Assembly: GCF_009914755.1 (NCBI RefSeq)
Contig: NC_060948.1
DNA: 64,000 nucleotides
Origin: the human T2T-CHM13v2.0 reference genome, Homo sapiens
Reading direction: 5' to 3' (one strand)
Position numbers and translations under genes: made by a program. The notes beneath the pieces were generated by a model, which saw only the letters and a list, made by a program, of their open reading frames with translations, had not been told where the DNA came from and made no database searches. Position 1 is the first letter of the stretch, and every line of letters begins with the position of its first letter. Of this stretch, positions 4,568 through 43,844 are shown in pieces.

Positions 4568-4751
4568 TATAACATTTACTCCAAATTTCTCTCATTTATG
4601 GTTGTAAATTTCCTCTTTTAGTGGAAAGATGAATGCACTGAATGAAATAAATAAGGTTATAACATTTACTCCAAATTTTTCTCATAGATTGTTGCAAATT
4701 TCCTCTTTTAATGGAAAGATGAATGCACTGAATGAAATAAATAAGGTTATA
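4568..4751 (+). repeat. 90-bp tandem duplication spanning an intron/exon boundary
   Basis: 4571-4660 vs 4661-4750 differ at 6 of 90 positions. Confidence 0.97.
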
Positions 4752-4826
4752 TCTAGTGTATCATATTATACTCATCGGCATAGTAATCCTGAGGAGGAAG
4801 AATGGCTGACAGCTGAGCGAATGGCA
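4688..4826 (+). CDS. USP9Y: USP9Y coding exon (~9), 139 nt
   Basis: ctcatag|ATTGTTG ... ATGGCA|gtaagc; [16 protein letters not shown]...WLTAERMA. Confidence 0.94.
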
Positions 4827-7801: not shown

Positions 7802-7906
7802 GCAGGAAAACATGAAGCCATTGTGAAGAATGTACATGATCTGCTAGCAAAGTTGGCTTGGGATTTTTCTCCTGGACAACTTGATCATCTTTTTGATTGC
7901 TTTAAG
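7802..7906 (+). CDS. USP9Y: USP9Y coding exon (~11), 105 nt
   Basis: tcaacag|GCAGGA ... TTTAAG|gtagta; [35 protein letters not shown]. Confidence 0.95.
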
Positions 7907-9208
7907 GTAGTAGCTTGAATAGTAAAGTATTGCCAAATAGTAAATATTGCCAGTTAATTCTAAGTAAAGTTTAATTCGTTAGATTTCTTTTGCTTATAGC
8001 TAGTGTGCTTAACTAACATTTTCATGGAAGAATCTCTGATGAAAAAGAATTGGTCATTGTTGTTTCTTCCAATCAGAGTTTAACAGTAATTTGTTGTAAT
8101 AGTTTTCATCACAAATGCAGAATCTTAATGTTTTTTCACTTACATTATTTCTTTGAATTCATTTCCACTGGTAATTTTCATTTTGACTTTGGTTAAAATA
8201 ACCTGTAGAAATGCAGAGAATAATTGGAAAATGAGGCATAAAACATTCTGGTTCTATGGAGTTATGTATATGGCATATAGAAATGAAATTCAAAAAACAA
8301 GAGGTTTCTAATATCATAATGTCACTTTTAAAGACATTTTGGCACAATGGTCTCGCTGGTTTTTAAGGTTGATGAATTTATGGATCAAGAATATAAATCC
8401 ATATGTCATTATTCAGGAATAAATATTTCAGTAAATAGTAATTAGATTTTTGGTGGGAGCTTTACTTGCTAATTACAAGAGAGAATAGGTTGGCATTGTT
8501 CTTTTAAAATGTAGATTCTTACGTTCTATCACCCAACTATTCTATTTCTGAATCTATGCCCTGGGTAAACTCCTGAATATGTTCACTAAGGAATGTTTTC
8601 AACAGTATCTTAGCAGGATTGTTTTATTAGTCCCGAAATGAAGGAAACAACTTAAATGTCTATATATTATGAAAGGATAAGTAAACTGTGGACTCCTTTA
8701 TATGGAACACTTTGTGACAATGAAAGTTAACACATTGTAACAGTTTGGCACATAGATGGATCTTGCCATTATGGAGAATATAGAAAAAAGGAAGAAAATG
8801 ATGTACAAGAAGTCAGAAGTGACCTGGATAATAGTTTCACAACTGTTACACTTTGAATTCTGACTACACCCCAGATGTGTTAAATCAGAATTACCATGTA
8901 AAGGGACTAGACTTTTAATCATGTCAGCATAATAAGAATTTATTTGAGATGACTATATGTTTTAATCTGTTGGATGTATATCAGAGGTAGGCAAGGACAT
9001 CAATATTGAGAAGTTATATTTGATACTCTTTATTTCCTATTGTTTTTAGTCCTGAGATAACTTCTGAAACAGTGATGCACCAAGACAGCCATAATAATAG
9101 ATGGAGGATCTGGTGTCAATTTCTCTCTTTTTTTTTTCTCCCTCTCCTTTTTAATTCATAAATTCTCAAGATGACTTCAAGATAATTAAAATAAAAAATC
9201 TATTATCT

Positions 9209-9491
9209 GACTGGGAACGGTGTCTTAGGCCTGTAACCCCAGCACTTTGGGAGACTGAGGAGGGTGGCTCACATGAGGTCAGGAGTTCGAGACCACCTTG
9301 GACAACATGATGGAACCCCATCTCTATTAAAAATACAAACAGTTCTCTGGGCATGGTGGTGCATGCCTGTAATCCCAGTTACTCTGGAGAATGTCTTGGA
9401 CCTCGGGGGCAGAGGTTGCAGTGAGTCAAGATCACACCACTGCACTCCAGCCTGGGTAACAGAGGGAGACTGTCACAAAAGAAAAAAAAAA
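9209..9491 (+). mobile_element. Alu (diverged, with an internal deletion)
   Basis: Alu consensus with A tail. Confidence 0.9.
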
Positions 9492-10423
9492 TCTGTCATT
9501 TCTGTATTGCTGTTTGGCTTACCTATTGTTTATCAAAAGTCTGTTATTCAGTGACTAGCATTGCATTTTTGAGGTGTTGGTAAATCTGGCAGTTCTTACA
9601 CAGCATGCCAGTGTGTCTTCAAAGGTCTTTGTTAAGGTGCTTTTAAGGAGGCAATGAGTATACGCCAATTATCAGTTCTTCGTGGGCTGCAGCTGGATGA
9701 TTCCAAGTTTATCTTTCTTCTCAGTTACATGTAGTTAATGTGCTTGCTCAAACTCTAGGTGATAAAGATTTGAATTCTAAGTAAGCCTTTGTCTTCTGAG
9801 GTGTTGGTACTAATTTTCAGTGCTTGCCAACGTTTATTTTTGGCATAATTTTTCATTTTTGAAAGTCCCATGGTTATGAGATTCTCTTTGTGGTCATCAA
9901 TTTTAATATTTCTAGATACTGAGATTGAACATTGTTACAGGTCTTTGAGCTGTTCTCACTTCCTTCTTAGAATATGTCTATTTTTCCTGTCCAGTAGTTG
10001 TCCTAATTTGTTTCCTAGGAGTTTTTGTGTATCTAAATGCTTATTGTTCAAACCGTATCACAAATAGTTTCTCACAGGTTTTATTAACAGTTTGTTTGAA
10101 TCAGGATCTAACTACATTCCTCACTGTCTAGTTTTCTATCTTTTAATCACTCCTCTTTGATTCTGTAGTTGCCTCCTTACATTTTTTTGTTCTTGTAATA
10201 ATATTCATCATTTGCTATTTTGTTAGTAGTTTCTGTATTCCTTTTGTTATTTCAGTGGGAATTTTGTGGACACCAGAGGGAATTAAAAGCAGGTGTTACA
10301 GTTGTCTTCCTAAGAAATTCTGTATTTATCATTTTAAAGTGCTGTACAGTTACTAGGTTAAGGTGATGTAGTCCTTTCTCCTATTATTGGACATTTAAGT
10401 GGATTTCAGTTCTTTAGTTCTAG

Positions 10424-10891
10424 TGTGTCCAGAATTTATTCCTTCCTGTGGGTTCTTGGTCTTGCTGACTTGAAGAATGAAGCCACAGACCCTCCTGGTG
10501 AGTGTTACAGCTCATAAAGGTAGTGCAAACCCAAAGAGTGAGCAGCAGCAAGTGTTATTGTGAAGAGCGAAAGAACAAAGCTTCCACAGGGTGGAAGGGG
10601 ACCCAAGCCAGTTGTGCTGCTGGCTTGAGTAGCCAGCTTTTATTCCTGTATTTGGTCCCACCCACATCCTGCTGATTGATCCATTTTACAGAGCACTGAC
10701 TGGTGTGTTTACAGTCCTTTAGCTAGACAAAGAGTGCTGATTGGTATGATTTTACAGAGTGCTGATTGTTGTGTTTACAATCCTTTAGCTAGACACAGAG
10801 TGCAGATTGGTGCATTTGCAAACCTTTAGCTAGACACAAAAGTTCTCCAGGTCCCCATCTGAACTAGAAGCTCAGCTGACTTCACCTCTCA
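10424..10891 (-). mobile_element. Solo LTR12-family (ERV9) LTR, short variant
   Basis: Ends tgtgtccagaatt... and ...gctgacttcacctctca; internal tandem gtgctgattggtg/tttaca-tcctttagctagacaca units; flanks ctag/ctaa are a near 4-bp TSD. Confidence 0.9.
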
Positions 10892-11394
10892 CTAATAACT
10901 ACTAATAAAATACTACATATAGCTTCCTCTGTATTGCTGGGCATTTAGAACACTTGTTTTACTTTAATAAATTAATTTTTTATACTAAGAAGATTGTAGA
11001 TTCACGTACCATGTTAAGAAGTAATGCAGAAAATCCCATATATTCTTTACCCTGTTACTCTTAGTGTTAACATCTTTAAAAATCACTGCAACCAAGATTT
11101 TGATCACTACCAAGATTTTGACATTGTTTCCATCAAGATACTGAACATCTGTGTCATCACAAGGATTCCTCATGGTGCCCTTTTATTGCAACACCCGCTT
11201 GCCTTCTGCCCCAACTTCCTTCTTAACCCCTGGCAACTAACCAGACCGCCAGTCGGCTCAATTTCTAAAGGTCTTTTGCTTTTACTTTAAACATGTACTA
11301 ACTGGAATTGAACATAATATGGACTTTTGAGGTTAGTTTTTTTTTCATTCTATTTAATTGTTTGCAGTCTCACTAGAATGATGTATGTATCTAT

Positions 11395-11947
11395 CAGGTT
11401 GAGTATCCCTTATCTGAAATGCTTAGTACCAGAAGTATTTTGGAATTTTTTTTTTTGGAGCATTTGCCTCATACTGACTACTTGAGCATCTCTGCATTAA
11501 AAATCTGAAATCCAGAATGTTTTTATTGCTGTTGTTTTTTGAGATGGAGTCTCACTCTGTTGCCCAGGCTGGAGGGCAGTGGTGCGATATCAGCTCACTG
11601 CAAGCTCTGCCTCCTGAGTTCACACCGTTCATCTGCCTCAGCCTCCCAAGTAGCTGAGTAGCTGGGACTACAGGTGCCTGCCACCACACCCGGCTAACTT
11701 TTTTGTATTTTTTTTCAGTAAAGACAGGATTTCACTGTGTTAGCCAGGATGGTCTTGATCTCCTGACCTTGTCATCTGATCTGCCTGCCTCAGCCTCCCA
11801 AAGTGCTGGGATTACAGGTGTGAGCCACCATGCCTGGCCCAGACTGTTTTAAGGAGCATATCTTTTGAGCATCATGTCACCATGCAGAAAGTTTCAGATT
11901 TTGGAGTATTTAAATTTCAGATCTTCACATTAGGCATACTGTATCTG
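11395..11947. mobile_element. Tigger4a/MER46-like MITE split by an AluY
   Basis: Starts caggttgagtatcccttatctgaaatgct; resumes after the Alu and ends ttaggcatactgtatctg (degenerate terminal inverted repeat). Confidence 0.75.
11526..11839 (-). mobile_element. AluY-like nested in the MITE
   Basis: Alu consensus; imperfect TSD cagaatgttttta / cagactgttttaa. Confidence 0.92.
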
Positions 11948-12043
11948 ACATTTGCTTCCTTTATTGACGAGTAGTACTCATGGTATGAACTACTCACCAT
12001 GAATGGACATCTGTATTATATCCAGGTTGGGGCTATTATAAAC

Positions 12044-12278
12044 TGCTGTGAACCTTGGTGGGCAGGGTTTTTGGCTTTTTTATGTTTTTATTTTGTGTTT
12101 TAATGCAATGCTTATTTCTCTAGGTGAGATGAAATGTGGAAATGTTGCAGTCTTCCTAATGCTGTGAACCTTGGTGGGCAGGGTTTTTGGCTTTTTTATG
12201 TTTTTATTTTGTGTTTTAATGCAATGCTTATTTCTCTAGGTGAGATGAAATGTGGAAATGTTGCAGTCTTCCTAATGC
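12044..12278 (+). repeat. Perfect 116-bp tandem duplication
   Basis: 12044-12159 is identical by eye to 12160-12275; TGC microhomology at the junction. Confidence 0.96.
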
Positions 12279-12776
12279 ACCTTATTGTAGCATTTTCTCA
12301 TTTTCTGTATCAGTACCCCATGTTCTTTGTCCTGTGTCCAAGAAAATTAAGGAACGTGGACACAAAGGTGGGATTGGAGTGAAAATTTAATAAGTGAAAG
12401 AAAAAAGCTCTCTTCAGCAGAGAGGAGTCCGAGTGGATTGCTGGGTTATAGCTGAATTTAACAGCTTTTATAAGAAGCTCTTCTCATCTCTGTAGCAGTT
12501 TGAATAACTTCTATTATCAGTAAAGCTGTCTGTGCAACTCCTCTTATCTTAAGCAGTTGTGGATATGTCTCTAGGCAAGCACAGAGTGCCACTTCTCTTC
12601 TTGATATAACTGAGGGTTTGTTTTCGATAAGCCCCTCACCTCCCTGTGTAAGTTCTCACCATTTGTATGCCTGAAAAACTTTTTCCTGGGAGCTGACTAA
12701 TTATACAAAGTTGCTTACCTATGTGCAGGTGCAGCCTGAGGTTTTCCAAACTGATTTTTCCTTTGCTTCTCCCTCA
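12259..12776 (-). mobile_element. 3' LTR of an ERV1-class provirus (family not determined)
   Basis: TG...CA ends (tgttgcag ... ttctccctca); the adjacent ttccctgctt reads as a polypurine tract on the - strand. Confidence 0.75.
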
Positions 12777-14924
12777 TTCCCTGCTTCAGGAGTGGAAACC
12801 CTGACTGCTGTTGGGAAGATTGGGCATTGATCTTTCTGGTTAATTCCTGCTGGAGACAGGCATTGTGTGGGGAACAGAAGCTAGGATTCCTCCAGGAGAT
12901 GGTTTAAGGCACTCAGATGAAAGAAGTGTTTATGCCTGGTTCCATTTGCATTACCATTTGGAGCTTGATAGCTTCTAAGTGAAATGAAACAATTTGGGTT
13001 ACTAGTGGACATATGTTAAAATGAGACAAGAAGTGGGGAAAGACAGCATTAAAATCCTGAGGCTGTTGACATGCCCTGATAACTGGTGGCTATAACTATG
13101 CCTGTTAAGATTTTGGGTGCATGGGGCTAGGCTTTGTTGAGCTTCCTTGGTCTTACTTTCCCAAAATGGAAACGTCTGGATTATAGGTTACCTGGCAGCA
13201 TTTGTAGGATAATCGCCCTGAACTAGAACATTGTTCCAGATTTTTACGTTACATATCCCTTTCTGTTTCCTGTGAGCTGCAGCCAGAGATGGCTGGTTAG
13301 TTTACAGGAATAAGCAATGTTAGTTTAAAATGTAGGCAGGAATGTAAAAACTACTAACGAAACTAGAAGTCAATGACAGATATGTGATAAGTTTGGAACA
13401 TAATTTCCCTTTTTTCAGTGCTCATTTCTGTTAAAAACAAATTCCAGTCCTCATTTCTGTTAAAAACAAATAAGATTGAGTTGTTTGCAAAATAGACTTT
13501 AGTTTTAAAGTTGGTCTGAGATTTGCATAAAATGCAGGAAGAATAATTATTTTTACACAGGCCTTTTAGATAGGCTTTGATGGAACTTTCTTCCACAAGG
13601 ACTCTCAGATGGGACTTTGAAGCTGAGCCCAGCCACGGGTTTGTACCCTCAGATACCTGTGACTTAGGTAAACTTTTCTTTTCTTGAGGTTCCAAGAGCA
13701 TGGTGTTCCTAGGGCTGTGAGAAAGTGAAATTTGTTACTCACCGCAGGTTAGGAAGCTTATATGGAAGCTGTGTAGACAAGGTGTGAGGCCACTTTTCCC
13801 AAAGGGCTTTTATTGGCTCTGCAAGTCAAGACTGACTCCTTCAGTGGAAACAAACCCTCCAGTCAAAACCTTGGTAAAACAACCAGTTTTTCAAATTGTG
13901 TGCAAAATAAAATGGATTCTTACTGCACTGACGCAAACAACCATATTATAAGTCAAGAATACTTACAACAAGTATCTGAATTTTAAAGGAACCAGGCAGA
14001 AAGAAACAAACATGCTCTAAACCTTGTTCACAAGAGTATACCTTACTCAGTTGTTAGTCTGTAGCTAGCTCAAGACAAGTTTCCTTGACTCTGAAAAACA
14101 AAATAAGGATCAGCACTGTTGTAAGCATAAACCAAAAAGATTGCTTTAGTTTTCTATTAGTTCAGTCCATTCTGTTAACTATTGTTCTGCTTGATATTTG
14201 TAAACATTTCAGCTTTTCGTAAGTCCTGTACATTTTTCTGTTATGAGAAACCTGCATTTGAGAGCACCTGTTAAAGTTCCATAGCTGATTATAAACTATT
14301 TTTTTGAAGAAGATTCAAGCAAGACAACAATTGTCTGTAAAGACAAAATGTCCAAGGTGGTTACAGTCAAGAACATGATTGACAAATGTGATTATTTCCA
14401 TGACTTAAAATAACTCAACATAACAACCTTAATTGCAATTAACAGCACATACTCTGGGCCTAGAATCTTGGATATCCCATACGGTTATCCCATCAGCCTT
14501 TATTATTATATGGAAATCCTGTTGAAGAGAGAAAGTTAAAATTTCACCCTTGCATTAGTTTACTATTAATTTATTTAGCCTCAGTTTTTAATGAAACATT
14601 GTAGGCACTCCTATTCAATTTTAACCAGTTTGACCATGAGGTGAGATTTTTGCAAACCTGTTATAACCCTTTACAAGTTTTGCTAAAGAGCAGATTGGGA
14701 TCTTAGGAATACCTTGTTGTGCTTTTATTTCAATATTTAATTTACAGAAAAAAACAAATACCCTTTTTAATTTAGTTAATATGTTCATACACAGTTTCCT
14801 TTGTAAGATTAAGTTTTGCAATCTTTTTCAGTTTGCTTAAACCTTCCAGTTTATCTAATTTAAGACAGTCCTTTATTCTTAGGCACAATGTACATTTCCT
14901 TGCTTTCTTATAATCTTTTACTAA

Positions 14925-15309
<385 letters not shown>

Positions 15310-16145
15310 CAGAATGTTTTTATTTTTAAAGATGAAAGTCATGTGAACTGAAAGGTACCACAAGCTTTTGCTTTTTCTTTAAAAGTATTTAAGTGCTTAT
15401 TTACTTAGGCCAATTAATTAGAACTCTTTTTATAGACATCACATACATATCACATACATGACTACACAGACAGAAGAAGATCCAACAGCTTAGAGTGGAG
15501 CCCTTTTAAGAGCAGTCTAGGAATACAGTCTCCTGTGCCTAGTAAACAAGCATAGCTGGAAGACAAAGACAGATTAGAAGGACTTACCACCTCTAATTAC
15601 AGGGGTTGTATGAAGAAAACAGAAATTTCTCCCCAAATGAGATGTGTTGCACCTTATCTGTTTTCTCAAGGAGTCCTGGGCCACCAGAAGTCATTCTAGG
15701 GTCTTTCATGCATGCACCAAGAGTGGCAAGACAGAGTGAAAAAAGTTGACTGAAGAAGAACCTTTTGCAGAAAAACAAGATCTATGAAAAGAAAAACACC
15801 AGGGCCTTTTAAATACACCCATAGCTTAGAGACCCACTTTCAATTAAGTTGAGTGCTCTTTAAAAAAATTCTTTTTCATTAATTAAAACTTTACAGAGAA
15901 TGTAAATAGTGATTCTTACTTCTTTTACCAGTTTGCTTCACTTCCTGTTCACAGTCATATTCGGGTTCCCAGTTTTCTCTGGGAGAAAATGGCTGGACTT
16001 AGGCAAGGGCAGGTTTTCAACTGGACAGGAGATCCCTTTAGCAGCGAAGCTTGATATTTGAGGAGGCAATTTGTCTGTTAGCCAGAACCTTTCCTTGGAG
16101 GACAGCAGTTCTTCTATTTTGTGTGGGGTGGTAACAGTTAAATTA

Positions 16146-16533
<388 letters not shown>

Positions 16534-19252
16534 TTAGCCACCAAGTTAAGTTCCTTGCTTAAGTAACCCACTGGCTGTTGAGCCAGACCTCAAGCCTTAG
16601 TTAAAAATTCTAGGGCCATTCCTTTCTTTCCTGATACATAGAGACTGGATGCTTTCCCTGTGGGAAGACTGAGGGCTGGTGTTTTAAGTAAGGCTTATTT
16701 TAGCTGGTTAAAGGCTTTTTGAGTCTCAGGGTCCCAAGTTGTGGGGGTGAGTTTTAACTGTTTGAGTTTCTTTTATGAGGTAATATAAAGGGAGAGCCAT
16801 TTCCCTGTACTCAGGTATTCACAGTCTACAAAATCTGGTAATACCTATGAATCCCCTTAACTAGTAAAGAAAATAGACTCAATCCTTTCCTTACCTACTT
16901 CTCTGGTCCTTTCTGTTGAGACTAGACCTAGTGACTTTACTGAAGTCTGACAGAGCTGAGTGTTAGATTTTTAGACCCTATATCCACTTTAAGCTAAGAG
17001 ATTGAGGATAGCCTCAGTGCCTTCCTGAGACATCCTTAATTAGGGCACAGAGGAGAGGGTCATTTATACACTGCAAAGTTTTTACTTGAGGGTGAGAAAA
17101 ACTAGATTTTTCAACAGAGTGTTTCATTAATTTCCTTCCCATTTTAGGAGCTGCCTGAGTAATAAACCAGCAGAGAAGGAGGTGTGTTTCACTAAAGCTT
17201 TTCTCATCCTTTCCAAAAATGCTGAAGGATTTTCATCTAGTTTTTGATCTATCTTGGAAACCTTAGAGCAGTTAATAGGTTTGGCTCTAATCCCCTGCAA
17301 GTCCTTCAGCATACACATTTGTAAAAGTTTCCATCTCCATTTTCTGATGTTATCATCATAGTCCCATTTAGAGTTCTTTAAGGTCACTGGTACTTTTCTC
17401 ATGGCTTTCCCTTCCCTGGAACATCCTTCATGGAGAATTTAAATACTTGGCTTACATCCTGGAAGGCCTTTATATGTGAGTGAAATTGGGGCTTTCCCAG
17501 AGTGAACTTTAGGGTCTGAGGATTAAAGGAGAACCAGTCTGCAATCAAGGGGATTGCAGGTGTGAGGATGGGGTATTATATATCTAGAAAAGAGACAAGA
17601 GAAGAGGCATCCCTCAGTCTCTTCAGTGACCCAGAGTGGAGAGGAAGACAGTGAGAGCAGCACCCCCACCCACTGCCAACTGTTTTCCCTCTTTGGTTAC
17701 TGTGTCCCAGCACCATGTTGAATGTGCCACCCCCAAACCGTGATACCAGAGGAGCATAGCAGTGGGGTTAGTCATGCTTACCCATGTGGCCTTAGTGCTC
17801 TGCTGGTGATAACCCTTTGACCTCCTAGACTTGTGTGGTCTGTGTGACTCCTTGATGGATGGGTGTGTATAGTATGCTGGTAAGAGTTTTAGATTTACTT
17901 TTTTCATGTGAATATTCAGTTGTCCAAGGAGCATTTGTTAAAAGATTGTTGGGAATATTGTTCAGCATCTTTGTCGAAAATAAGTCAATCATAGATGGAA
18001 GTGTTTACAAGCTTTATGTTCTGTTTCATTGTTTGGATATATCTGTCGTGAAACCAGAATTGCATTGCATTGATTTGCAGCTTTATAGAACATTTACAAA
18101 TTATGAAGCGACAGTTCTTCAATTGTGTTATCTTTTAAGATTGTTTTGGCTATTCTAGGTCCCTTGAACTTCCATATTGGTTTTAGCATTAGCTTGTTGA
18201 TTTTTGCAAAGACATTAGCTGGAATTTTGATAAACCTTATTCAGTTTGTATTGTACTACCATCTTAACAGCATTAGTCTTCCAATCAGGGAACATACAAT
18301 GTCTTTCCATTTATTTAGGGATGTCTTTCCGTTTATTTGGGTCTATCTTACTTTTGTTCAGCAATTTTTTTTTTTTAGTTTTCAGTTCAACTGTGCTAAA
18401 GTGATACCAAAAGAATTTTTTGTTTTTGTTGTGAATATAAATGGAAGTTTTCCTAATTTCATTTTGGATTTTTTAACATCTAATGTAAAGAAACATGTAT
18501 CTTGTATGTAGAAATACAGTTGATATTTGTTTATTGATCTTGCATACTGAAACTCTGTTACATTTCTTTCTTGTAGTAGTTTGTTATTGACTCTTAAATT
18601 TTTCTATGTATGGCATCATATTGTTTGCAATACAGTTAGTTTTACTTGTTCTTTTCCAATTATATAACTTCTCCTTCTGGCCTGATTTCCCTAACAAGAA
18701 CTTCTAGTACAATGTTAAAAGTAATGGTGAGAACAGTCATTTTTGTCTTGTTTCTGATTGTAGTTGGCAAGCTTTCCATTTTTCAGCATAAAATACAATG
18801 TAAAAAGGAGGGCTTTTGTAGATGCCTTTTATTGGGTTTAGGAAGTTCTCTTCAAATCCTAGTTTATTGAGTATTTTTATCATGAAAGGATATTGGATTT
18901 TATTAACTGTCTTGGTATATGGAGATGTTACATGTGTTTATGTCCTATTTTACATTAGTTGATTTTTGTATGTTCAGCCAGGTTTATACTTCTCGAATAA
19001 ATTATACTTGTCTTGGTGTATAATCTTTTTTTATATGTGTTGCTTCTTAAACTGCAATAAACGATACTTGTTATGATCTATAATCTTTTTATTTGTTGCT
19101 GGATTTTCTTTCTGTTTTGTTTAGGACATTTTTAGGTTTTTAAGAAACTGCCAAACTGTTTTCCAGAATGACTAACCTTATTCATTTCTACCCATAGTTT
19201 ATGAATATGAATAATCCAGTTTCTCCACATTCTTTCTACATTTTGGTATTGA

Positions 19253-19585
<333 letters not shown>

Positions 19586-20978
19586 CCAGTGACACTATTT
19601 TTTAAACTTGTTTTATTCTGACAGGTGTGCAGTGAAATCCCATTAATGGTTTTAATTTACATTATCCTAATGACTAATGATGTTGAAGATCTTTCATATA
19701 TTTAGTTTCTATGTGGAGTTTTTGGTGAAATGCCTTTTTATGTTTTTTGTTCATTTGCTAATTTAAGTTTGTTATTACTGAGTTCTTTATGTAATCTAGA
19801 TGATAGTCATTTATTAGAAACACAGTTAGCAAATATTTTCAAACAGTCTATAGCATATCTTTTTGTCCGCTTTAACAGGTGTTTTACCAGTTGAGTTTGT
19901 ATTCTGATGAGGTCCGACTTATTTTTTCTTAGAAATCATGCTTTTTTATGTCAAATTCTGAGCACTTATTGCCTACCCATAAATCCTATTTATTCTTATA
20001 TTGTTTCTCTAAAAGTTTTACTTATGTCATTCAGGTCTGATCCAGTTGAGTGATGCTTTCTTGCATTCTTTAGGTGTGAGACTTAGATCTAAACTTCTTT
20101 TTCTTCTCCCAGGTATTCCAGAACCATTTTGTGAAAGGCTGTCTTTCATTTTTAATTTATTATGTTGCTCTTGTACCTTTTTCAGAAATCAGTTGGTCAC
20201 ATTTGTGTGGGTTTATTTATACATTTTTTGTTTTCTTCATTGATCTTTGTTCCTGTGCCTCAGAATTGTGATTACTGCAAGTACATAATGTAGTATTAAA
20301 ATCAGGTAGACAGACTCATCCCAGTTTATCTTTTTTTCAAATTATTTAGTTGTTTTTAAATTTTGCTTACCGTAAAAATTTTAGATAATCTGATCTTCAT
20401 TTTAGATATCTGCTTCCCAGTAATAGGAGATACACTGTTTTAAATAGTAGTACGTAAATTCTGTATATCGGTTTGGGGAGAATTTTGGCATGGATTTTTG
20501 AGCCCCAGAATACTATATACCTCTTCATTGATTTAGACCTTTGAATTATTTATTCACACATACAAACCTTATACATGTTTGGTTAAATTTACAGTTAAAT
20601 GTTTATGTGTCTGGTTTTACTTTGAGTAATTGTGAATGTTTTTGATGCTGTGTTTATACATTTATTACTACTCCTGTATAGGTTTGATTTTTATATGTAT
20701 ATTCCATGTCCTGCAATCGTGTTAAAGTCCATGAGGCTTTTTTTTTCTCTTTGAGGATCCTTGCAATTTTCTTTTATATAGAAAATCATACCCCTGCACG
20801 TAGGAAGAATTTTGCATCTTCCTTCTCCTTGTGTGTGCCTGTTACTTCTTTTTCTTGCCTCATTATGTTGGTTAGAATTGCCAGTATAAAGCTCAATAGA
20901 AGTGGCTAGAGGGAGCAATTTAGTCTTGCTTTGATCTCATGGTAAGAAAACTATCAGTGTTTCATTGTTAATAACGTT

Positions 20979-21091
20979 AGCCTGGAGCAGTGGCTCACAC
21001 CTGTAATCCCAACACTTTGTGAAGTTACGGCAGGAGGATTGCCTCAGCCCAAGAGTTAGAAGCTACAGTGAGCCAAGATCTCACCCTGTCT
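20979..21091 (+). mobile_element. Alu monomer/fragment (FLAM or AluJ-like)
   Basis: agcctggagcagtggctcacacctgtaatcccaacactttg... Confidence 0.75.
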
Positions 21092-21261
21092 GTTTTAGAA
21101 CAGAAAAGCAAGTACAGAGGGAATAATGTTATCTCCCCCTTTTTTGTAGATGCCATTAATTGGTTTAAGAAAATTGCATTCCATTTTTGTTCTGAGACTC
21201 TTTGTCATGAATGGATGTTTTGCCAAGTGTTTTTTTCTGTATCTGTTGCTGTGATAGTGAG

Positions 21262-21539
21262 TTTTTTTTTTTAGACATGGTCTCACTCCGTCACCCAGGT
21301 GAGAGGGCAGTGGCGTGATCACAGTTCACTGCAGCTTTGACTTCCCGGGCCCAAGCTATCCTCCTCCCTCAGCGTCCTGAGTAGCTAGGACTAAGGGCAC
21401 ACCCTACCACACGAAGCTAACTTTTTTTCTAATTTTTATTTTTACAGAAGTGGGGTTTCACTGTCATGCCCAGGCTTGTCCTCCCAAACTTTCGCCTCCT
21501 GTCACTGGGATTACAGGTGTGAACAGCCATGTACAGCCC
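21262..21539 (-). mobile_element. AluJ-like
   Basis: gatcacagttcactgcagctttgacttcccgggcccaagctatcctcc. Confidence 0.85.
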
Positions 21540-22374
21540 AGTTTTTCTTTTCTACCCTTTTAATGTGGTGGATTACAGTGATTGTTTTTTGATTAGTTAG
21601 TTAGGCCTGTATCCCTGGAATAAACCATACTTAATCATATATCATTATTATTGTGTGTTTTTGACTTTCCTTTTCTAATAATTGTTAAGGAATTTTGCAT
21701 TCGTATTTCTGAGGGATGCAGTCTGTAGTTTTCTTTGTAATGTTCAGGTTTTGCAGTCAGAACATTACTTACTTTATAAAATATTGGGAAGTGTTTCTTC
21801 TTTTTTTCCTCACTGAAACTATCTGGTCTGGTGATTATTTTGGGGAGTTTTAACATTACAAATTTAGTTTTTCATAATAATTGTTCTTTTAAAATTGTTT
21901 ATATTGATTGAGTTCCTGTAATTTGTTTTTAAGAGATGTGATATATTTTGTCTAGGCTGTCAAATTATATATTATTTCTAGTGTTCCGTATTGTTTTTTG
22001 ATGTCAGCACAGTCTGCAGTCATAGCTGTTTTATTACTGATGTTAGTAATTTGTGTATTACCTTTAATAAGATTTTGTTTTACTCACTGCGCTAGAAGTT
22101 TAATTATACATCCTTTTGAAAAGACAAGTCTTTGTTTAATTAATTTTCTCTGTTGTTTCTTTTAAAGTTTATGGATTTTTGTTAATTCTTTAGTGTGTCC
22201 TTTATTCTGCTTTCTTCAAGCTTGTATTGCTCTTTTTTTGTAGTTTCCTAAAGTAGGAGTTAAGATGATTCACTTCAGCATTTCCTCTTATCTGTGTGTT
22301 TGGTGTTAGGAACTCCCATCTTCCACTATGTTTAAATGTTGCATATTTTATCCAAATTTTGCTTTTTTTGACAA

Positions 22375-22509
22375 GCATATATATGCAAACAGGCTTATGT
22401 ATATGTATATATATATATGCCTATATATATACATATATACCAGTATAATATACATATTATAAATATATAGATATACATGTTGCGTGTGTGTGTGTGTGTG
22501 TGTGTGTGT
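22375..22509. repeat. (TA)-rich low-complexity tract ending in (GT)13
   Basis: Read directly; GT run at 22484-22509. Confidence 0.9.
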
Positions 22510-22520
22510 ATGTATTCCTT

Positions 22521-22820
22521 CCAGACAGGGCCTCAATCTGTTCGCCCAGGCTGGAGTTTAGTGGTACAATCACACTCACTGCAGTCTCAGCCTCCCAGGT
22601 TCAAGCAATTCTCCCACCTCAGGCTTCCTGAGTAGCTCAGACTATAGGTATGAATCACTATGTCCAGCTAATTTTTAAATTTTTTTATAGAAATAAGTCT
22701 CACTGTGTTTTTTAGGCTGGGACTCAAACTTGCTTGGCCTTAAACTATTGGGCTCAAGTGATTCTCCTTCCTTGGCCTCTCAGAGTGGTGGATTACAGTC
22801 ATGAGCCACCATGCTTAGCC
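22521..22820 (-). mobile_element. AluJ-like
   Basis: Diverged Alu consensus. Confidence 0.85.
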
Positions 22821-23367
22821 TCAATTATATTAATTTCTGTGAAGATGACTCTTTGAGAACATAGAACTAGGACTTGAACAACAATTAATAGGAGGTTTTC
22901 ATGTCATCGTAATGTAATTGATTTATACTTTGATTCCTGTGTAATTATATGATTTTCATTCTTAAATTTCCTGAGGTTGGTTTTGTCACTGAAGAGGTGG
23001 TCTATCTTGTGTGTTTTCTTTTGTAGGAACTTTGAAAATAAGGTTTATCCTGCTGTTGTGTGGAGTGTTCTATAAATGTCAGTTAAATCCTGTTGGTTGA
23101 TACTTTCGTTGATATTTTTGCAAATTTTCTGTGTAGTTCTGTCGTTTGTTTAGAGAGGGTTGTTGATGTCTCTCTAATTATGATTTTGTCTCTTTTGCCT
23201 TTGATTATCTTAGTTTTTGCTTCATATATTTTGCAGTATACACATTTTGGTGTATACATGTTTAGAACTGCTGTGTCGTGTCTTGATGAAGTGATCCTTT
23301 TTCATTGTTTAGTGACCTATGACATTTTTTTCTTGTGCTGAAATCTATTTTAATCTCATTAAAATAG

Positions 23368-23740
<373 letters not shown>

Positions 23741-24398
23741 CTCACCTGCCTATTTTGTTACACTTAATAATACAAAGAATCCCTGCTACCCCTTGCTATC
23801 ATATTTTTATGTTCTGCTTATTCTCTTCTGTTTTTCATTTCTCTGTGTTTATTTTCCTGCCTTCTGGAGGGTTATTGGAATATTTTTTAAATTTCTGTAG
23901 CACATTACTGTGTCTGTTTATGTAACTTTAAAATCTTTGATAATTCTAACATCTGTCGTTTTTGTGTTGGCACCAGTCAATTCTTTTTTCATTCATGTTG
24001 ATGTCTTCCTGATTCTTGATATGTCAAGTAATACTCAGTGGAAACCCAGAGATATTCATATGTTGTTTGACTCAAGGAATATTGAAACTTCTGTTTTCCT
24101 TGATTTTTGTCTGGCAACACTCAGGCAAGGGAAGGGAGGGATACCCTTGGTTGTTACCACTTGGAAGTAGAACTCCAAGTTCCCTATACTGTCTTCCTTA
24201 ACACTCGAAGGGGGTGTTCCTTATTACTGCTATGTGGGGGGGAATTTCTGACCCCCTGTGTGGTCCACACTTCTAACTTCTACCATGGTGGGAGTGATGT
24301 TTTTTGCAACGGGCAGTGATGAAAGTTCTGATTCTCTTTTAGGCACCACTCCAGCAGAATCAGGCAGGTGCTGGCTCTTTGTTATTGTCAAGTGGAGT

Positions 24399-24477
24399 TA
24401 GAAATCCCAGCTCACTACTTGGCCTTCTTTATCTTCCATAGAAACCCCAGCTCACTAGTTGGCCTTCTTTATCTTCC
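24399..24477 (+). repeat. 40-bp tandem duplication (2 mismatches)
   Basis: tagaaa(t/c)cccagctcacta(c/g)ttggccttctttatcttcc x2. Confidence 0.93.
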
Positions 24478-25468
24478 CACAGATTTTGGCATGCTTGGTT
24501 ACAGCCTTAAGAACTTTAGGGTTTTCACTCAACTTTTTGTGGTATGCATGGGGAGTGAGTCATAGTTCTTTCTATAGTTTTTGCTTGGAGTAGGACATTT
24601 ATTTTCTAAGTTTTCAATTTGCATGTTTCCTGATCCATAGGCTATAGGGGTGGCTGTGGGGAGGGAGGGTGCTTTTCTTATCTGCACCTACTAATGTTGG
24701 CAGGTTGCTAGATCTTTTAGCTTCAAATCTGGAATATATGAAATAAAAGAAAATTCTGGGAATTCACTACCTTCTTGTTCCTTATATTTAGAAGTCTCTG
24801 TGAGGTCTACATTCTTCTCTTTACTTTTCAGGGACTATTTTCTTCCCTATTCTTTTCAGACTCCAAAGTTCGTGTTATGTATAATGTCCAGGAGTTTTGG
24901 TTGTATTTAATGGGAAGAATAATGAAACATCTGTTTTACCTTCACAAATCAAAATGATCTTAATTCTTTTCAGTGAGCATTTTATCTCCTACATGTAGAC
25001 AGCATTTGTTCATCATTTCTTTGTAAGTTGGAGGTTTTTGTTGTTTGGATTTTTTGGTCTGTAACATAATTTCTAATAAACATTTTTCACCTCTTATGTT
25101 TGCTTTTTGTTGTAAAATGTTTAATGAGGATTACTTAATCATCTGCTCTCTTTATGTATAACAGCATTTTTGTGTCAGGTATCCTTTGTTATTTTTTAAT
25201 TACGTAATTTTCAAGTTAAAAGTAACAAAGTTTATATTGGAAATAGAGGCTCTTTTTCCTGGAGTTGCAATTACTTTGTCTCGCGAGTACTATTTTGTTT
25301 CCTCTACTAACACCTTTGTTCAGATATGCTCTTGGGGTGTGTGTGTGTGCGCACACGCCCCTGTGTGTATGTGATGAATGTAGTTTATTCAAAGACTTAA
25401 AGCAGTGGTTAATGTAAACAAACGTAATAAATTATGTGGTATTTATATCATTTAAATACTTTCTTTAG

Positions 25469-25675
25469 GCAAGTTGGACAAATGCAAGTAAAAAGCAACG
25501 TGAAAAGCTCCTTGAGTTGATACGCCGTCTTGCAGAAGATGATAAAGATGGTGTGATGGCACACAAAGTGTTGAACCTTCTTTGGAACCTGGCTCAGAGT
25601 GATGATGTGCCTGTAGACATCATGGACCTTGCTCTTAGTGCCCACATAAAAATACTAGATTATAGTTGTTCCCAG
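25469..25675 (+). CDS. USP9Y: USP9Y coding exon (~12), 207 nt
   Basis: tctttag|GCAAGT ... TCCCAG|gtatgg; [28 protein letters not shown]...LDYSCSQ. Confidence 0.95.
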
Positions 25676-43748: not shown

Positions 43749-43844
43749 GTTGTGATTCAGAGTAGTGACGAGATTGCTAACAGAGCTATAGATCTTCTTA
43801 AAGAGATATACACAAACCTTGGCCCAAGATTAAAAGCCAATCAG
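43749..43844 (+). CDS. USP9Y: USP9Y coding exon (~17), 96 nt
   Basis: aaccag|GTTGTG ... AATCAG|gtgaga; [32 protein letters not shown]. Confidence 0.94.

What the first reader, a model, noticed from the sequence alone, without database searches (positions are those of the whole stretch)
12044..12278. Perfect 116-bp tandem duplication of an AG|GTGAG motif builds a candidate poison / recursive-splicing exon
Seen: two identical 116-bp units in the window's largest intron (7907-25468). Each contains ttttaat...gcttatttctctAG|GTGAGAtg, i.e. a branch-like motif, pyrimidine tract and acceptor fused to a near-consensus donor. Acceptor 1 (AG 12122-12123) and donor 2 (GT 12240-12241) bound a 116-nt exon, 12124-12239. 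After the phase-0 upstream exon it reads GTG AGA TGA, an immediate premature stop. Established: AG|GT junctions followed by a downstream donor are the architecture of vertebrate recursive-splicing exons, and tandem duplication of AGGT is a classic model for exon or intron gain. Inference: a very young duplication (no mismatches; it postdates the ERV because it copies the first 17 nt of the LTR end) may have created an NMD-coupled exon or ratchet point in USP9Y.
Basis: partly seen in the sequence, partly recalled or inferred. Interest (0 to 1): 0.75.

Follow-up and report, generated by a model that had tools for sequence, protein, structure and literature searches.

The report
Intronic tandem duplication doubling cryptic splice motif
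A 116-base stretch deep inside a USP9Y intron has been copied head to tail without a single difference, which doubles a splice-site look-alike and outlines a possible false exon, but nothing in the sequence shows that this exon is used and many equally good look-alikes lie nearby.

Summary
Window 12044-12159 and 12160-12275 are identical 116-nt units, followed by TGC (12276-12278), which also starts each unit. This is a 3-nt microhomology junction. The unit occurs nowhere else in the assembly. An LTR begins at 12259, so each unit carries its first 17 nt and the duplication postdates the LTR insertion. Exon 7802-7906 ends in phase 0. Including 12124-12239 reads Val-Arg-stop and shifts the frame.

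- With splice models trained on the window's 20 exons, the donor TAG|GTGAGA is good (above 13 of 20 real donors).
- The acceptor is in the lowest quarter (above 4 of 20 real acceptors; 439-630 of 4006 AGs score as well).
- 104 acceptor-donor pairs in the window score as well on both sites, and only 11 are real exons.
- Better acceptors (11921, 12026) and another donor (12367) mean a false-exon layout existed before the duplication.
- The exon body is 45% T, more than any real exon.
- The USP9X intron has no counterpart.
- Zero mismatches only bounds the age at about 15-19 Myr.

No RNA data or other Y assemblies could be reached. My best reading is a neutral microhomology-mediated duplication that makes an unused or noise-level pseudoexon.

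The parts
12044..12159 (+). Tandem duplication, unit 1 (116 nt)
   Evidence: Identical to 12160-12275. No CpG. Found nowhere else in the assembly at E<=0.001.
12160..12275 (+). Tandem duplication, unit 2 (116 nt)
12276..12278 (+). TGC microhomology at the duplication junction; it also forms the first 3 nt of each unit
   Evidence: The flanking bases 12043 and 12159 differ, so the repeat ends here.
12124..12239 (+). Putative 116-nt pseudoexon (acceptor of unit 1 to donor of unit 2). It reads GTG AGA TGA after the phase-0 exon 7802-7906.
   Evidence: translation ...DCFKVR*. Composition is T 45%, A 19%.
12102..12123 (+). Acceptor 1: branch-like TTAAT (A at 12102), pyrimidine run, TAG
   Evidence: Window-trained scores are 2.8 and 4.3 bits, above 4 of 20 real acceptors.
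12237..12245 (+). Donor 2, TAG|GTGAGA. Donor 1 is the same 9-mer at 12121-12129.
   Evidence: 8.9 bits, above 13 of 20 real donors; 27 of 3847 other GT sites score as well. The real exon 43749-43844 uses CAG|gtgaga.
12259..12710 (.). ERV LTR whose left edge lies inside unit 2. Orientation was not determined.
   Evidence: Other copies are 73-84% identical. No second LTR is in the window.
12143..12159 (.). 17-nt copy of the LTR edge carried into unit 1 (20 nt with the TGC)
11986..12100 (.). Fragment of an old dispersed repeat that supplies the 5' half of the unit
   Evidence: Four other loci match at 74-78% identity. The family name was not tested; it looks L1-like by recall only.
12026..12123 (+). 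Alternative 98-nt pseudoexon that needs no duplication (acceptor tccag|GTT at 12026, donor 1). A further acceptor lies at 11921.
   Evidence: Acceptor scores are 6.7-7.4 bits, higher than the candidate's.
12365..12373 (+). Further donor-like site AAG|GTGGGA inside the LTR, 128 nt after acceptor 2
   Evidence: 7.4 bits.
7802..7906 (+). Upstream USP9Y exon. It ends AAG in phase 0, and joining it to 12124 gives AAG|GTGAGA.
   Evidence: 9.3 bits.
25469..25675 (+). Downstream USP9Y exon

Best explanation
This is a neutral structural change with no established function. A single replication or repair slip at a 3-nt microhomology (TGC...TGC, 116 nt apart) duplicated 116 nt of intronic filler. That filler is the end of an old dispersed repeat plus the first 17 nt of an ERV LTR. 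The event happened some time after the LTR inserted and within roughly the last 15-19 Myr.

The copied stretch happened to carry a chance AG|GTGAGA. The allele now has two identical acceptor/donor look-alikes and a 116-nt pseudoexon with an immediate stop codon. I expect the spliceosome to ignore it almost always, for three reasons: a mediocre acceptor, a T- and G-run-rich body, and many equal decoys nearby.

If acceptor 1 is used occasionally, the junction rebuilds AAG|GTGAGA, which is at least as strong as donor 2. Most such events would then be erased by a second (recursive) splice, and the rest would be degraded by NMD. Neither path has a measurable effect on USP9Y output.

Shown: the duplication, the microhomology, the order relative to the LTR, the frame and stop, and the relative site scores. 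Inferred: the slippage mechanism, neutrality and non-use.
For: - Perfect 2 x 116 + 3 nt structure, and the unit is unique in the assembly.
- The LTR edge lies at 12259, inside the unit.
- The acceptor is above only 4 of 20 real acceptors in two window-trained models, and 630 or 439 of 4006 AG sites score as well.
- 104 acceptor-donor pairs of 50-300 nt score as well on both sites. Of these, 11 are real exons, 24 are a real donor with a decoy acceptor, and 69 use one of 27 decoy donors, 15 of which are in this same intron including the two here.
- The motif is expected by chance 0.56 times per strand.
- The exon body is 45% T, against 24-38% in all 20 real exons and 36% in introns.
- There is no counterpart in the 3,740-nt USP9X intron.
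- The hub's table lists no exon of NM_004654.4 here.
- In Zhang et al. 2018, only 342 of 36,870 AGGT sites that passed motif, strength and conservation filters had junction support in their cells (passage).
- An older Y-specific 90-bp duplication across a real acceptor in the same gene (4568-4747) has left one copy unannotated and without its AG.
Against: - The donor is good and identical in its intronic hexamer to a real USP9Y donor.
- The pyrimidine count before the AG (12 of 17) equals the median of the real acceptors, so the low acceptor score rests on small, noisy models of 20 sites.
- This is the only place on the + strand of the window with polyY + YAG|GTRAG.
- It lies 4.2 kb into the longest intron and 13.2 kb before the real acceptor, so it is transcribed well ahead of its competitor.
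- Zhang et al. report junction reads for 60% of their putative sites when 806 ENCODE data sets were pooled, so rare use is quite possible.
- No RNA data were examined, so non-use is inferred and not shown.
Confidence: 0.72

Rival explanations
1. Low-level recursive-splicing or poison exon. Acceptor 1 or 2 is used in a detectable fraction of transcripts. The exon is defined by the duplicated donor 116 nt downstream. It is then either removed through the rebuilt AAG|GTGAGA, leaving no trace, or included, giving a stop at the third codon and NMD. This would be a by-product of the duplication and not a selected regulator.
For: - The layout matches the RS-exon model: an exon that starts with a partial 5' splice site and rebuilds one at the junction, competing with its own downstream 5' splice site (PMC6224609 passages).
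- It meets the motif, intron-length (at least 5 kb) and distance (more than 2 kb) filters of PMC6110456 and the YAGGT + polyY motif of PMC10156609.
- The rebuilt donor scores 9.3 bits against 8.9 for donor 2.
- The stop codon and frameshift hold.
- 68% of RS exons in PMC6110456 carry a premature stop (figure legend).
Against: - The acceptor is weak-to-middling.
- The exon body is T-rich.
- There is no conservation in the X paralogue.
- Many equal decoys exist.
- There are 0 USP9Y or chrY entries in the 4 supplementary files held for PMC10156609.
- 0 papers in the library hold USP9Y together with 'recursive splicing' or 'poison exon'.
Confidence: 0.2
2. Selected regulatory poison exon. The duplication was retained because NMD-coupled inclusion tunes the USP9Y dose.
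For: Only the architecture.
Against: - Poison exons are characterised as conserved, alternatively spliced exons (PMC8819188 passage).
- This one sits in repeat-derived, Y-specific sequence with no X counterpart.
- It consists of two copies that cannot be told from a recent neutral event.
Confidence: 0.03
3. Assembly artefact: the true Y carries one unit.
For: None from any call. Perfect identity is what an artefact would also give.
Against: A 232-nt duplication in single-copy sequence is short compared with long reads (my own knowledge of how this assembly was made; not tested). The clean 3-nt microhomology junction is typical of a real event.
Confidence: 0.03

Closest known systems
Cryptic vertebrate RS-exons (Sibley et al. 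2015, recalled; Blazquez et al. 2018 PMC6224609 and Zhang et al. 2018 PMC6110456, passages read)
   Same: An intronic AG|GT, a rebuilt 5' splice site after joining to the upstream exon, a downstream 5' splice site that defines a short exon, and a premature stop if the exon is included.
   Different: Known sites are conserved, have strong 3' splice sites, and were found through junction reads, lariats or sawtooth profiles, mostly in much longer introns. Here conservation is absent in the paralogue, the 3' site is middling, and there is no RNA evidence.
Pseudoexons (false exons) of long human introns, as catalogued in PMC8819188 (passages read)
   Same: A deep intronic pair of splice-site look-alikes at exon-like spacing that is normally silent. 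15.7% of catalogued pathogenic pseudoexons show some splice-site use in normal cells.
   Different: Catalogued cases became visible through an activating mutation with a disease phenotype. Here the 'mutation' is a duplication in a reference genome with no known effect.
Intron or exon gain by tandem duplication of an AGGT-bearing segment (Hellsten et al. 2011 PMC3265369; PMC4974935; search listing and abstract starts only)
   Same: A tandem duplication places a GT of one copy and an AG of the other copy one unit length apart.
   Different: In those cases the duplication lies in an exon and the new intron restores the reading frame. Here it lies in an intron, so nothing needs to be spliced for the gene to work.
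Poison exons (NMD-coupled cassette exons)
   Same: A non-coding cassette with an early stop far upstream of the last junction.
   Different: By the definition quoted in PMC8819188 they are conserved and regulated. Neither property is shown here.

Membership tests
Recursive splice site / RS-exon (criteria of Zhang et al. 2018 and Blazquez et al. 2018) | AGGT motif (3' splice-site AG directly followed by GT) | tested here: met
   AG|GT at 12122-12125 and 12238-12241.
Recursive splice site / RS-exon | Lies in a long intron (at least 5 kb) and more than 2 kb from annotated splice sites | tested here: met
   The intron is 17,562 nt. The site is 4,218 nt from the upstream exon and 13,230 nt from the downstream exon.
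Recursive splice site / RS-exon | Strong 3' splice site (MaxEnt at least 5 in Zhang et al.) | tested here: inconclusive
   MaxEntScan was not available. Two models trained on the window's 20 acceptors place it above only 4 of 20 real sites, but its pyrimidine count equals the real median.
Recursive splice site / RS-exon | The rebuilt 5' splice site at the exon junction is strong | tested here: met
   AAG|GTGAGA scores 9.3 bits, above the leave-one-out median of the real donors, 7.6.
Recursive splice site / RS-exon | A downstream 5' splice site defines an RS-exon | tested here: met
   Donor 2 lies 116 nt downstream (8.9 bits). A further donor at 12367 scores 7.4 bits.
Recursive splice site / RS-exon | Evolutionary conservation of the site | tested here: not met
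   There is no counterpart in the homologous USP9X intron, and the sequence is repeat-derived. Cross-species conservation could not be tested because no primate genomes are held.
Recursive splice site / RS-exon | RS junction reads, lariats or a sawtooth profile | not testable with these tools
   No RNA data. The supplements held for PMC10156609 have no USP9Y or chrY entry. Wan 2021 and Sibley 2015 are not held.
Poison exon | A premature stop more than about 50 nt before the last junction | tested here: met
   The stop is at the third codon, and the exon length of 116 nt is not a multiple of 3. 15 further coding exons lie downstream in the window alone.
Poison exon | Observed alternative inclusion, and conservation | not testable with these tools
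   No RNA data. The conservation proxy (X paralogue) is negative.
Microhomology-mediated tandem duplication | Head-to-tail copies with a short shared sequence at the junction and no filler | tested here: met
   2 x 116 nt plus a shared TGC.

The most novel reading that the evidence does not exclude
The duplication is a Y-lineage-specific, possibly polymorphic, structural variant that turned a silent AG|GT into a working RS-exon or poison exon. Men with the two-copy allele would lose a measurable share of USP9Y transcripts to NMD. This would be a natural, datable case of exon birth by tandem duplication of a fused acceptor-donor motif in a human gene.
Probability: 0.05. Interest if true: 0.6.

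Novelty: new member of a known kind. Interest (0 to 1): 0.2.

Why it matters
If the exon were used, it would be a clean natural experiment. One-copy and two-copy Y chromosomes would differ only by 116 nt. That difference would show whether supplying a downstream donor is enough to activate an AG|GT as a recursive or poison exon, and it might modulate the dose of an AZFa gene. As things stand it is an ordinary intronic duplication. Its main use is as a possible Y-lineage marker and as a caution that AG|GT look-alikes are common.

Tried and rejected
- **Rfam scan of 11400-13000:** only Alu-derived sub-threshold hits, plus SNORD39 at 12121-12189 with E 0.79 and 18.4 bits against a gathering score of 35. 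I take this as chance.
- **Second LTR, to date the ERV:** none in the window, so no LTR-LTR dating was possible.
- **Pfam on 10 stop-to-stop ORFs in 12128-20243:** 1 of 10 hit. It is Gag_p30 on the minus strand at 17127-17438, E 1.5e-8. The 84-aa frame across the duplication hit nothing.
- **X-Y intron comparison:** outside the exon-adjacent 30-40 nt, the rows were Alu-type multi-copy matches plus one weak 86-nt match (72%, Y 9513-9598). Nothing matched 11950-12278.
- **Naming the old repeat under the unit's 5' half:** only 4 weak loci were found. The family was left unnamed.
- **Literature:**
  - USP9Y with 'recursive splicing': 0 papers.
  - USP9Y with 'poison exon': 0 papers.
  - USP9Y with 'cryptic exon': 4 papers whose titles concern other matters. 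I saw the listing only and did not read them.
  - The first broad search listed 20 of 360 papers, none holding USP9Y.
  - Wan et al. 2021 and Sibley et al. 2015 are not held, so their site lists could not be checked.
  - The supplements of PMC6110456 were not opened.
- **Not available:** MaxEntScan, SpliceAI, other human Y assemblies and ape genomes.

Full report
**1. Is it there?**

Yes. Reading the sequence, Tandem Repeats Finder (12044-12278, period 116, 2.0 copies, 100% matches, score 470), the repeat finder and a direct string comparison all agree. Window 12044-12159 and 12160-12275 are identical.

The three bases after the second unit (TGC, 12276-12278) equal the first three of each unit. 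The base before unit 1 (C) differs from the last base of the unit (A). The structure is therefore exactly 2 x 116 + 3 nt: a head-to-tail duplication with a 3-nt microhomology at its junction.

The unit was found nowhere else in the 3.1-Gb assembly at E <= 0.001. Of the 9 TRF rows scoring 100 or more in the whole window, this is the only perfect one with a period above 30.

**2. Anatomy**

- Each unit carries ...ttttaatgcaatgcttatttctctAG|GTGAGAtg.
- A yUnAy-like TTAAT puts an A at 12102, 22 nt before the would-be exon start.
- Acceptor 1 (AG 12122-12123) and donor 2 (GT 12240-12241) bound 12124-12239, which is 116 nt.
- The only open frame through the window's 20 annotated exons shows that exon 7802-7906 ends in phase 0. 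Inclusion reads ...DCFK V R stop. 116 is also not a multiple of three.
- The host intron (17,562 nt) is the longest of the 19 in the window. The site lies 4,218 nt from the upstream exon and 13,230 nt from the downstream one.

**3. What the duplicated DNA is**

To the right, a search of the assembly with 12262-13000 gave 47 matches at 73-84% identity. Their pattern, about 450 nt with adjacent internal sequence and several pairs 7-11 kb apart, is that of an ERV LTR.

Aligning 12180-12420 to eight of these copies puts the start of homology at 12257-12260 in 8 of 8. The printed edges show the element beginning TGTTGCAG at 12259, with the T present in 7 of 8.

So 12259-12275, 17 nt, is LTR. The same 17 nt (20 with the TGC) recur at 12143-12162, followed by non-LTR sequence.

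There is no second LTR in the window. A Gag_p30 remnant lies on the minus strand at 17127-17438 (1 of 10 frames tested). I did not establish whether it belongs to the same element, nor which way the LTR points.

To the left:
- 11850-11950 is a common repeat: 348 first-look candidates, of which 40 were scored. The 39 matches other than the query's own place are about 76-87% identical.
- 11986-12100, including the first 57 nt of the unit, matches four other loci at 74-78%.

The unit is thus built from the end of an old dispersed repeat, about 40 nt of unassigned sequence holding the AG|GT, and the LTR edge.

**4. Conservation proxy**

The exons flanking this intron have USP9X counterparts at 93-94% identity. 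The USP9X intron is only 3,740 nt. Against the Y intron it aligns over the 30-40 nt next to each exon. The other rows are multi-copy matches of an Alu-type repeat plus one weak 86-nt match to Y 9513-9598. Nothing matches 11950-12278. Other species could not be examined.

**5. How good are the splice sites?**

MaxEntScan and SpliceAI were not available. I trained position weight matrices on the window's own 20 donors and 20 acceptors and scored real sites by leave-one-out. These are small, noisy models.

*Donor.* TAG|GTGAGA scores 8.9 bits, above 13 of 20 real donors. Only 27 of 3,847 other GT sites on the + strand score as well. The real exon 43749-43844 uses CAG|gtgaga. The junction 7906^12124 would rebuild AAG|GTGAGA at 9.3 bits.

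*Acceptor.* It scores 2.8 bits in the full matrix, above 4 of 20 real acceptors, and 630 of 4,006 other AG sites score as well. In a less noisy model with a pooled pyrimidine-tract term it scores 4.3 bits, again above 4 of 20, with 439 of 4,006 AG sites scoring as well. Against this, its pyrimidine count at -20..-4 is 12 of 17, which is the median of the real acceptors.

*Pairs.* 104 acceptor-donor pairs spaced 50-300 nt score at least as well as the candidate on both sites:
- 11 are real exons.
- 24 combine a real donor with a decoy acceptor.
- 69 use one of 27 decoy donors. Fifteen of these donors lie in this same intron, including the two here.

*Exon body.* It is 45% T and 19% A. All 20 real exons have 24-38% T, and the introns average 36%. 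It also contains GGTGGGCAGGG. That G-runs act as silencers inside exons is recalled knowledge, not tested here.

**6. Did the duplication create the architecture?**

Only in part. Acceptors at 11921 and 12026 both score higher (6.7-7.4 bits), and the one at 12026 is itself an AG|GT. They pair with donor 1 to give 203-nt and 98-nt pseudoexons that need no duplication.

A donor-like AAG|GTGGGA at 12367 (7.4 bits) lies 128 nt after acceptor 2. In a one-copy allele that is 128 nt after the single AG|GT. What the duplication adds is a stronger donor at a similar distance, plus a second identical AG|GT.

**7. Is the motif more than chance?**

AGGTRAG occurs 26 times on both strands, against 16.1 +/- 3.9 in shuffles. 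That count includes seven real donors.

The stricter motif, five pyrimidines then 0-4 nt then YAG|GTRAG, occurs on the + strand only at these two sites. That is once before the duplication. It is expected 0.56 times per strand, and 43.5% of 200 dinucleotide shuffles have at least one. The ancestral motif needs no explanation beyond chance.

**8. Age**

The unit has no CpG. The rate used in the 43-Y-assemblies preprint is 0.76e-9 per bp per year, with a 95% interval of 0.67-0.86e-9 (passage). At that rate the first difference between two 116-nt copies is expected at 1.55-2.0e-7 per year.

Zero differences therefore has probability 0.5 at about 3.5-4.5 Myr and 0.05 at about 15-19 Myr. Gene conversion between the copies would loosen this further. 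'Very young' is possible but is not shown by the identity. The event could be human-polymorphic or shared with apes.

**9. Comparison with the known**

The RS-exon model runs as follows: an exon begins with a partial 5' splice site, rebuilds an RS-5ss at the junction, and this competes with the exon's own downstream 5' splice site, with the EJC repressing the RS-5ss. I read it in passages of PMC6224609.

The working criteria for human RS sites come from PMC6110456:
- an AGGT motif;
- an intron of at least 5 kb;
- more than 2 kb from annotated sites;
- 3' splice-site strength of at least 5;
- conservation of at least 0.5;
- then junction reads.

That paper also gives base rates. Of 36,870 putative sites, 342 became candidates and 16 showed a sawtooth profile. 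Junction reads for 60% of putative sites appeared only when 806 ENCODE data sets were pooled.

The site here meets the motif, length, distance, rebuilt-donor and downstream-donor features. It is inconclusive on 3' strength, fails the one conservation proxy I could run, and is untested on RNA.

- PMC10156609 uses YAGGT plus a pyrimidine run. In this window 26 intronic sites fit that motif, including these two. Its four held supplementary files contain no USP9Y, USP9X or chrY entry.
[quoted passage not shown] It reports that 15.7% of catalogued pseudoexons show some splice-site use in normal cells.
- The AGGT tandem-duplication model of intron gain is in print (PMC3265369 and PMC4974935; listing and abstract starts only). 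It concerns duplications inside exons.
- The library holds 0 papers with USP9Y and 'recursive splicing', and 0 with USP9Y and 'poison exon'. It holds 4 with USP9Y and 'cryptic exon', whose titles concern other topics; I did not read them.

**10. Verdict**

The most likely account (0.72) is a neutral, microhomology-mediated tandem duplication of intronic repeat-derived DNA that doubles a chance AG|GTGAGA. The resulting pseudoexon is unused or used at noise level. If it is used, the near-equal rebuilt donor and NMD would remove most traces.

Detectable low-level recursive or poison-exon use is a real possibility (0.2). A selected regulatory role (0.03) and an assembly artefact (0.03) are unlikely.

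The deciding data are junction and lariat reads in male RNA, and copy number in other Y assemblies and in apes. Neither could be reached with the tools here.

Noticed in passing
window 4568-4751: A second, older tandem duplication (period 90, 93% matches) spans the real acceptor and the first 60 nt of USP9Y exon 4688-4826. USP9X has a single copy and an intron of about 75 nt where USP9Y has 161 nt. The upstream Y copy is intronic. It reads tctcatttat|gg where the exon copy has tctcatag|AT, so its AG is lost. It has ttttag|TGG where the exon copy has ttttaaTGG. This is a Y-specific duplication that lengthened an intron and left one splice-site copy unused.
   Followed up: partly
window 7907-25468 versus L023 (USP9X): The homologous USP9X intron is 3,740 nt against 17,562 nt in USP9Y. 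The difference is filled with Alus, an LTR with internal ERV sequence, and other repeats.
   Followed up: partly
window 17127-17438, minus strand: A stop-to-stop frame matches Pfam Gag_p30 (E 1.5e-8, 34.9 bits). This is a class I ERV gag remnant antisense to USP9Y. Its link to the LTR at 12259-12710 was not established, and no second LTR is in the window.
   Followed up: no
window 43749, 44927, 54799: Three of the 20 annotated exons start with GT, so they have AG|GT at a real acceptor. The rebuilt junction 54611^54799 (GAG|GTAGTT) scores 7.2 bits and 43844^44927 (CAG|GTGGTT) scores 5.4 bits in the window-trained donor model. These would count as putative annotated RS-exons in the sense of Blazquez et al. 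2018. The third (AGG|GTTGTG) scores -1.1 bits.
   Followed up: partly
window 12026: A further intronic AG|GT (tccag|GTTGGG) lies 98 nt upstream of the first AG|GTGAGA, inside the old-repeat fragment. Its acceptor score is higher than the candidate's, and its donor reading CAG|GTTGGG scores 7.2 bits.
   Followed up: partly
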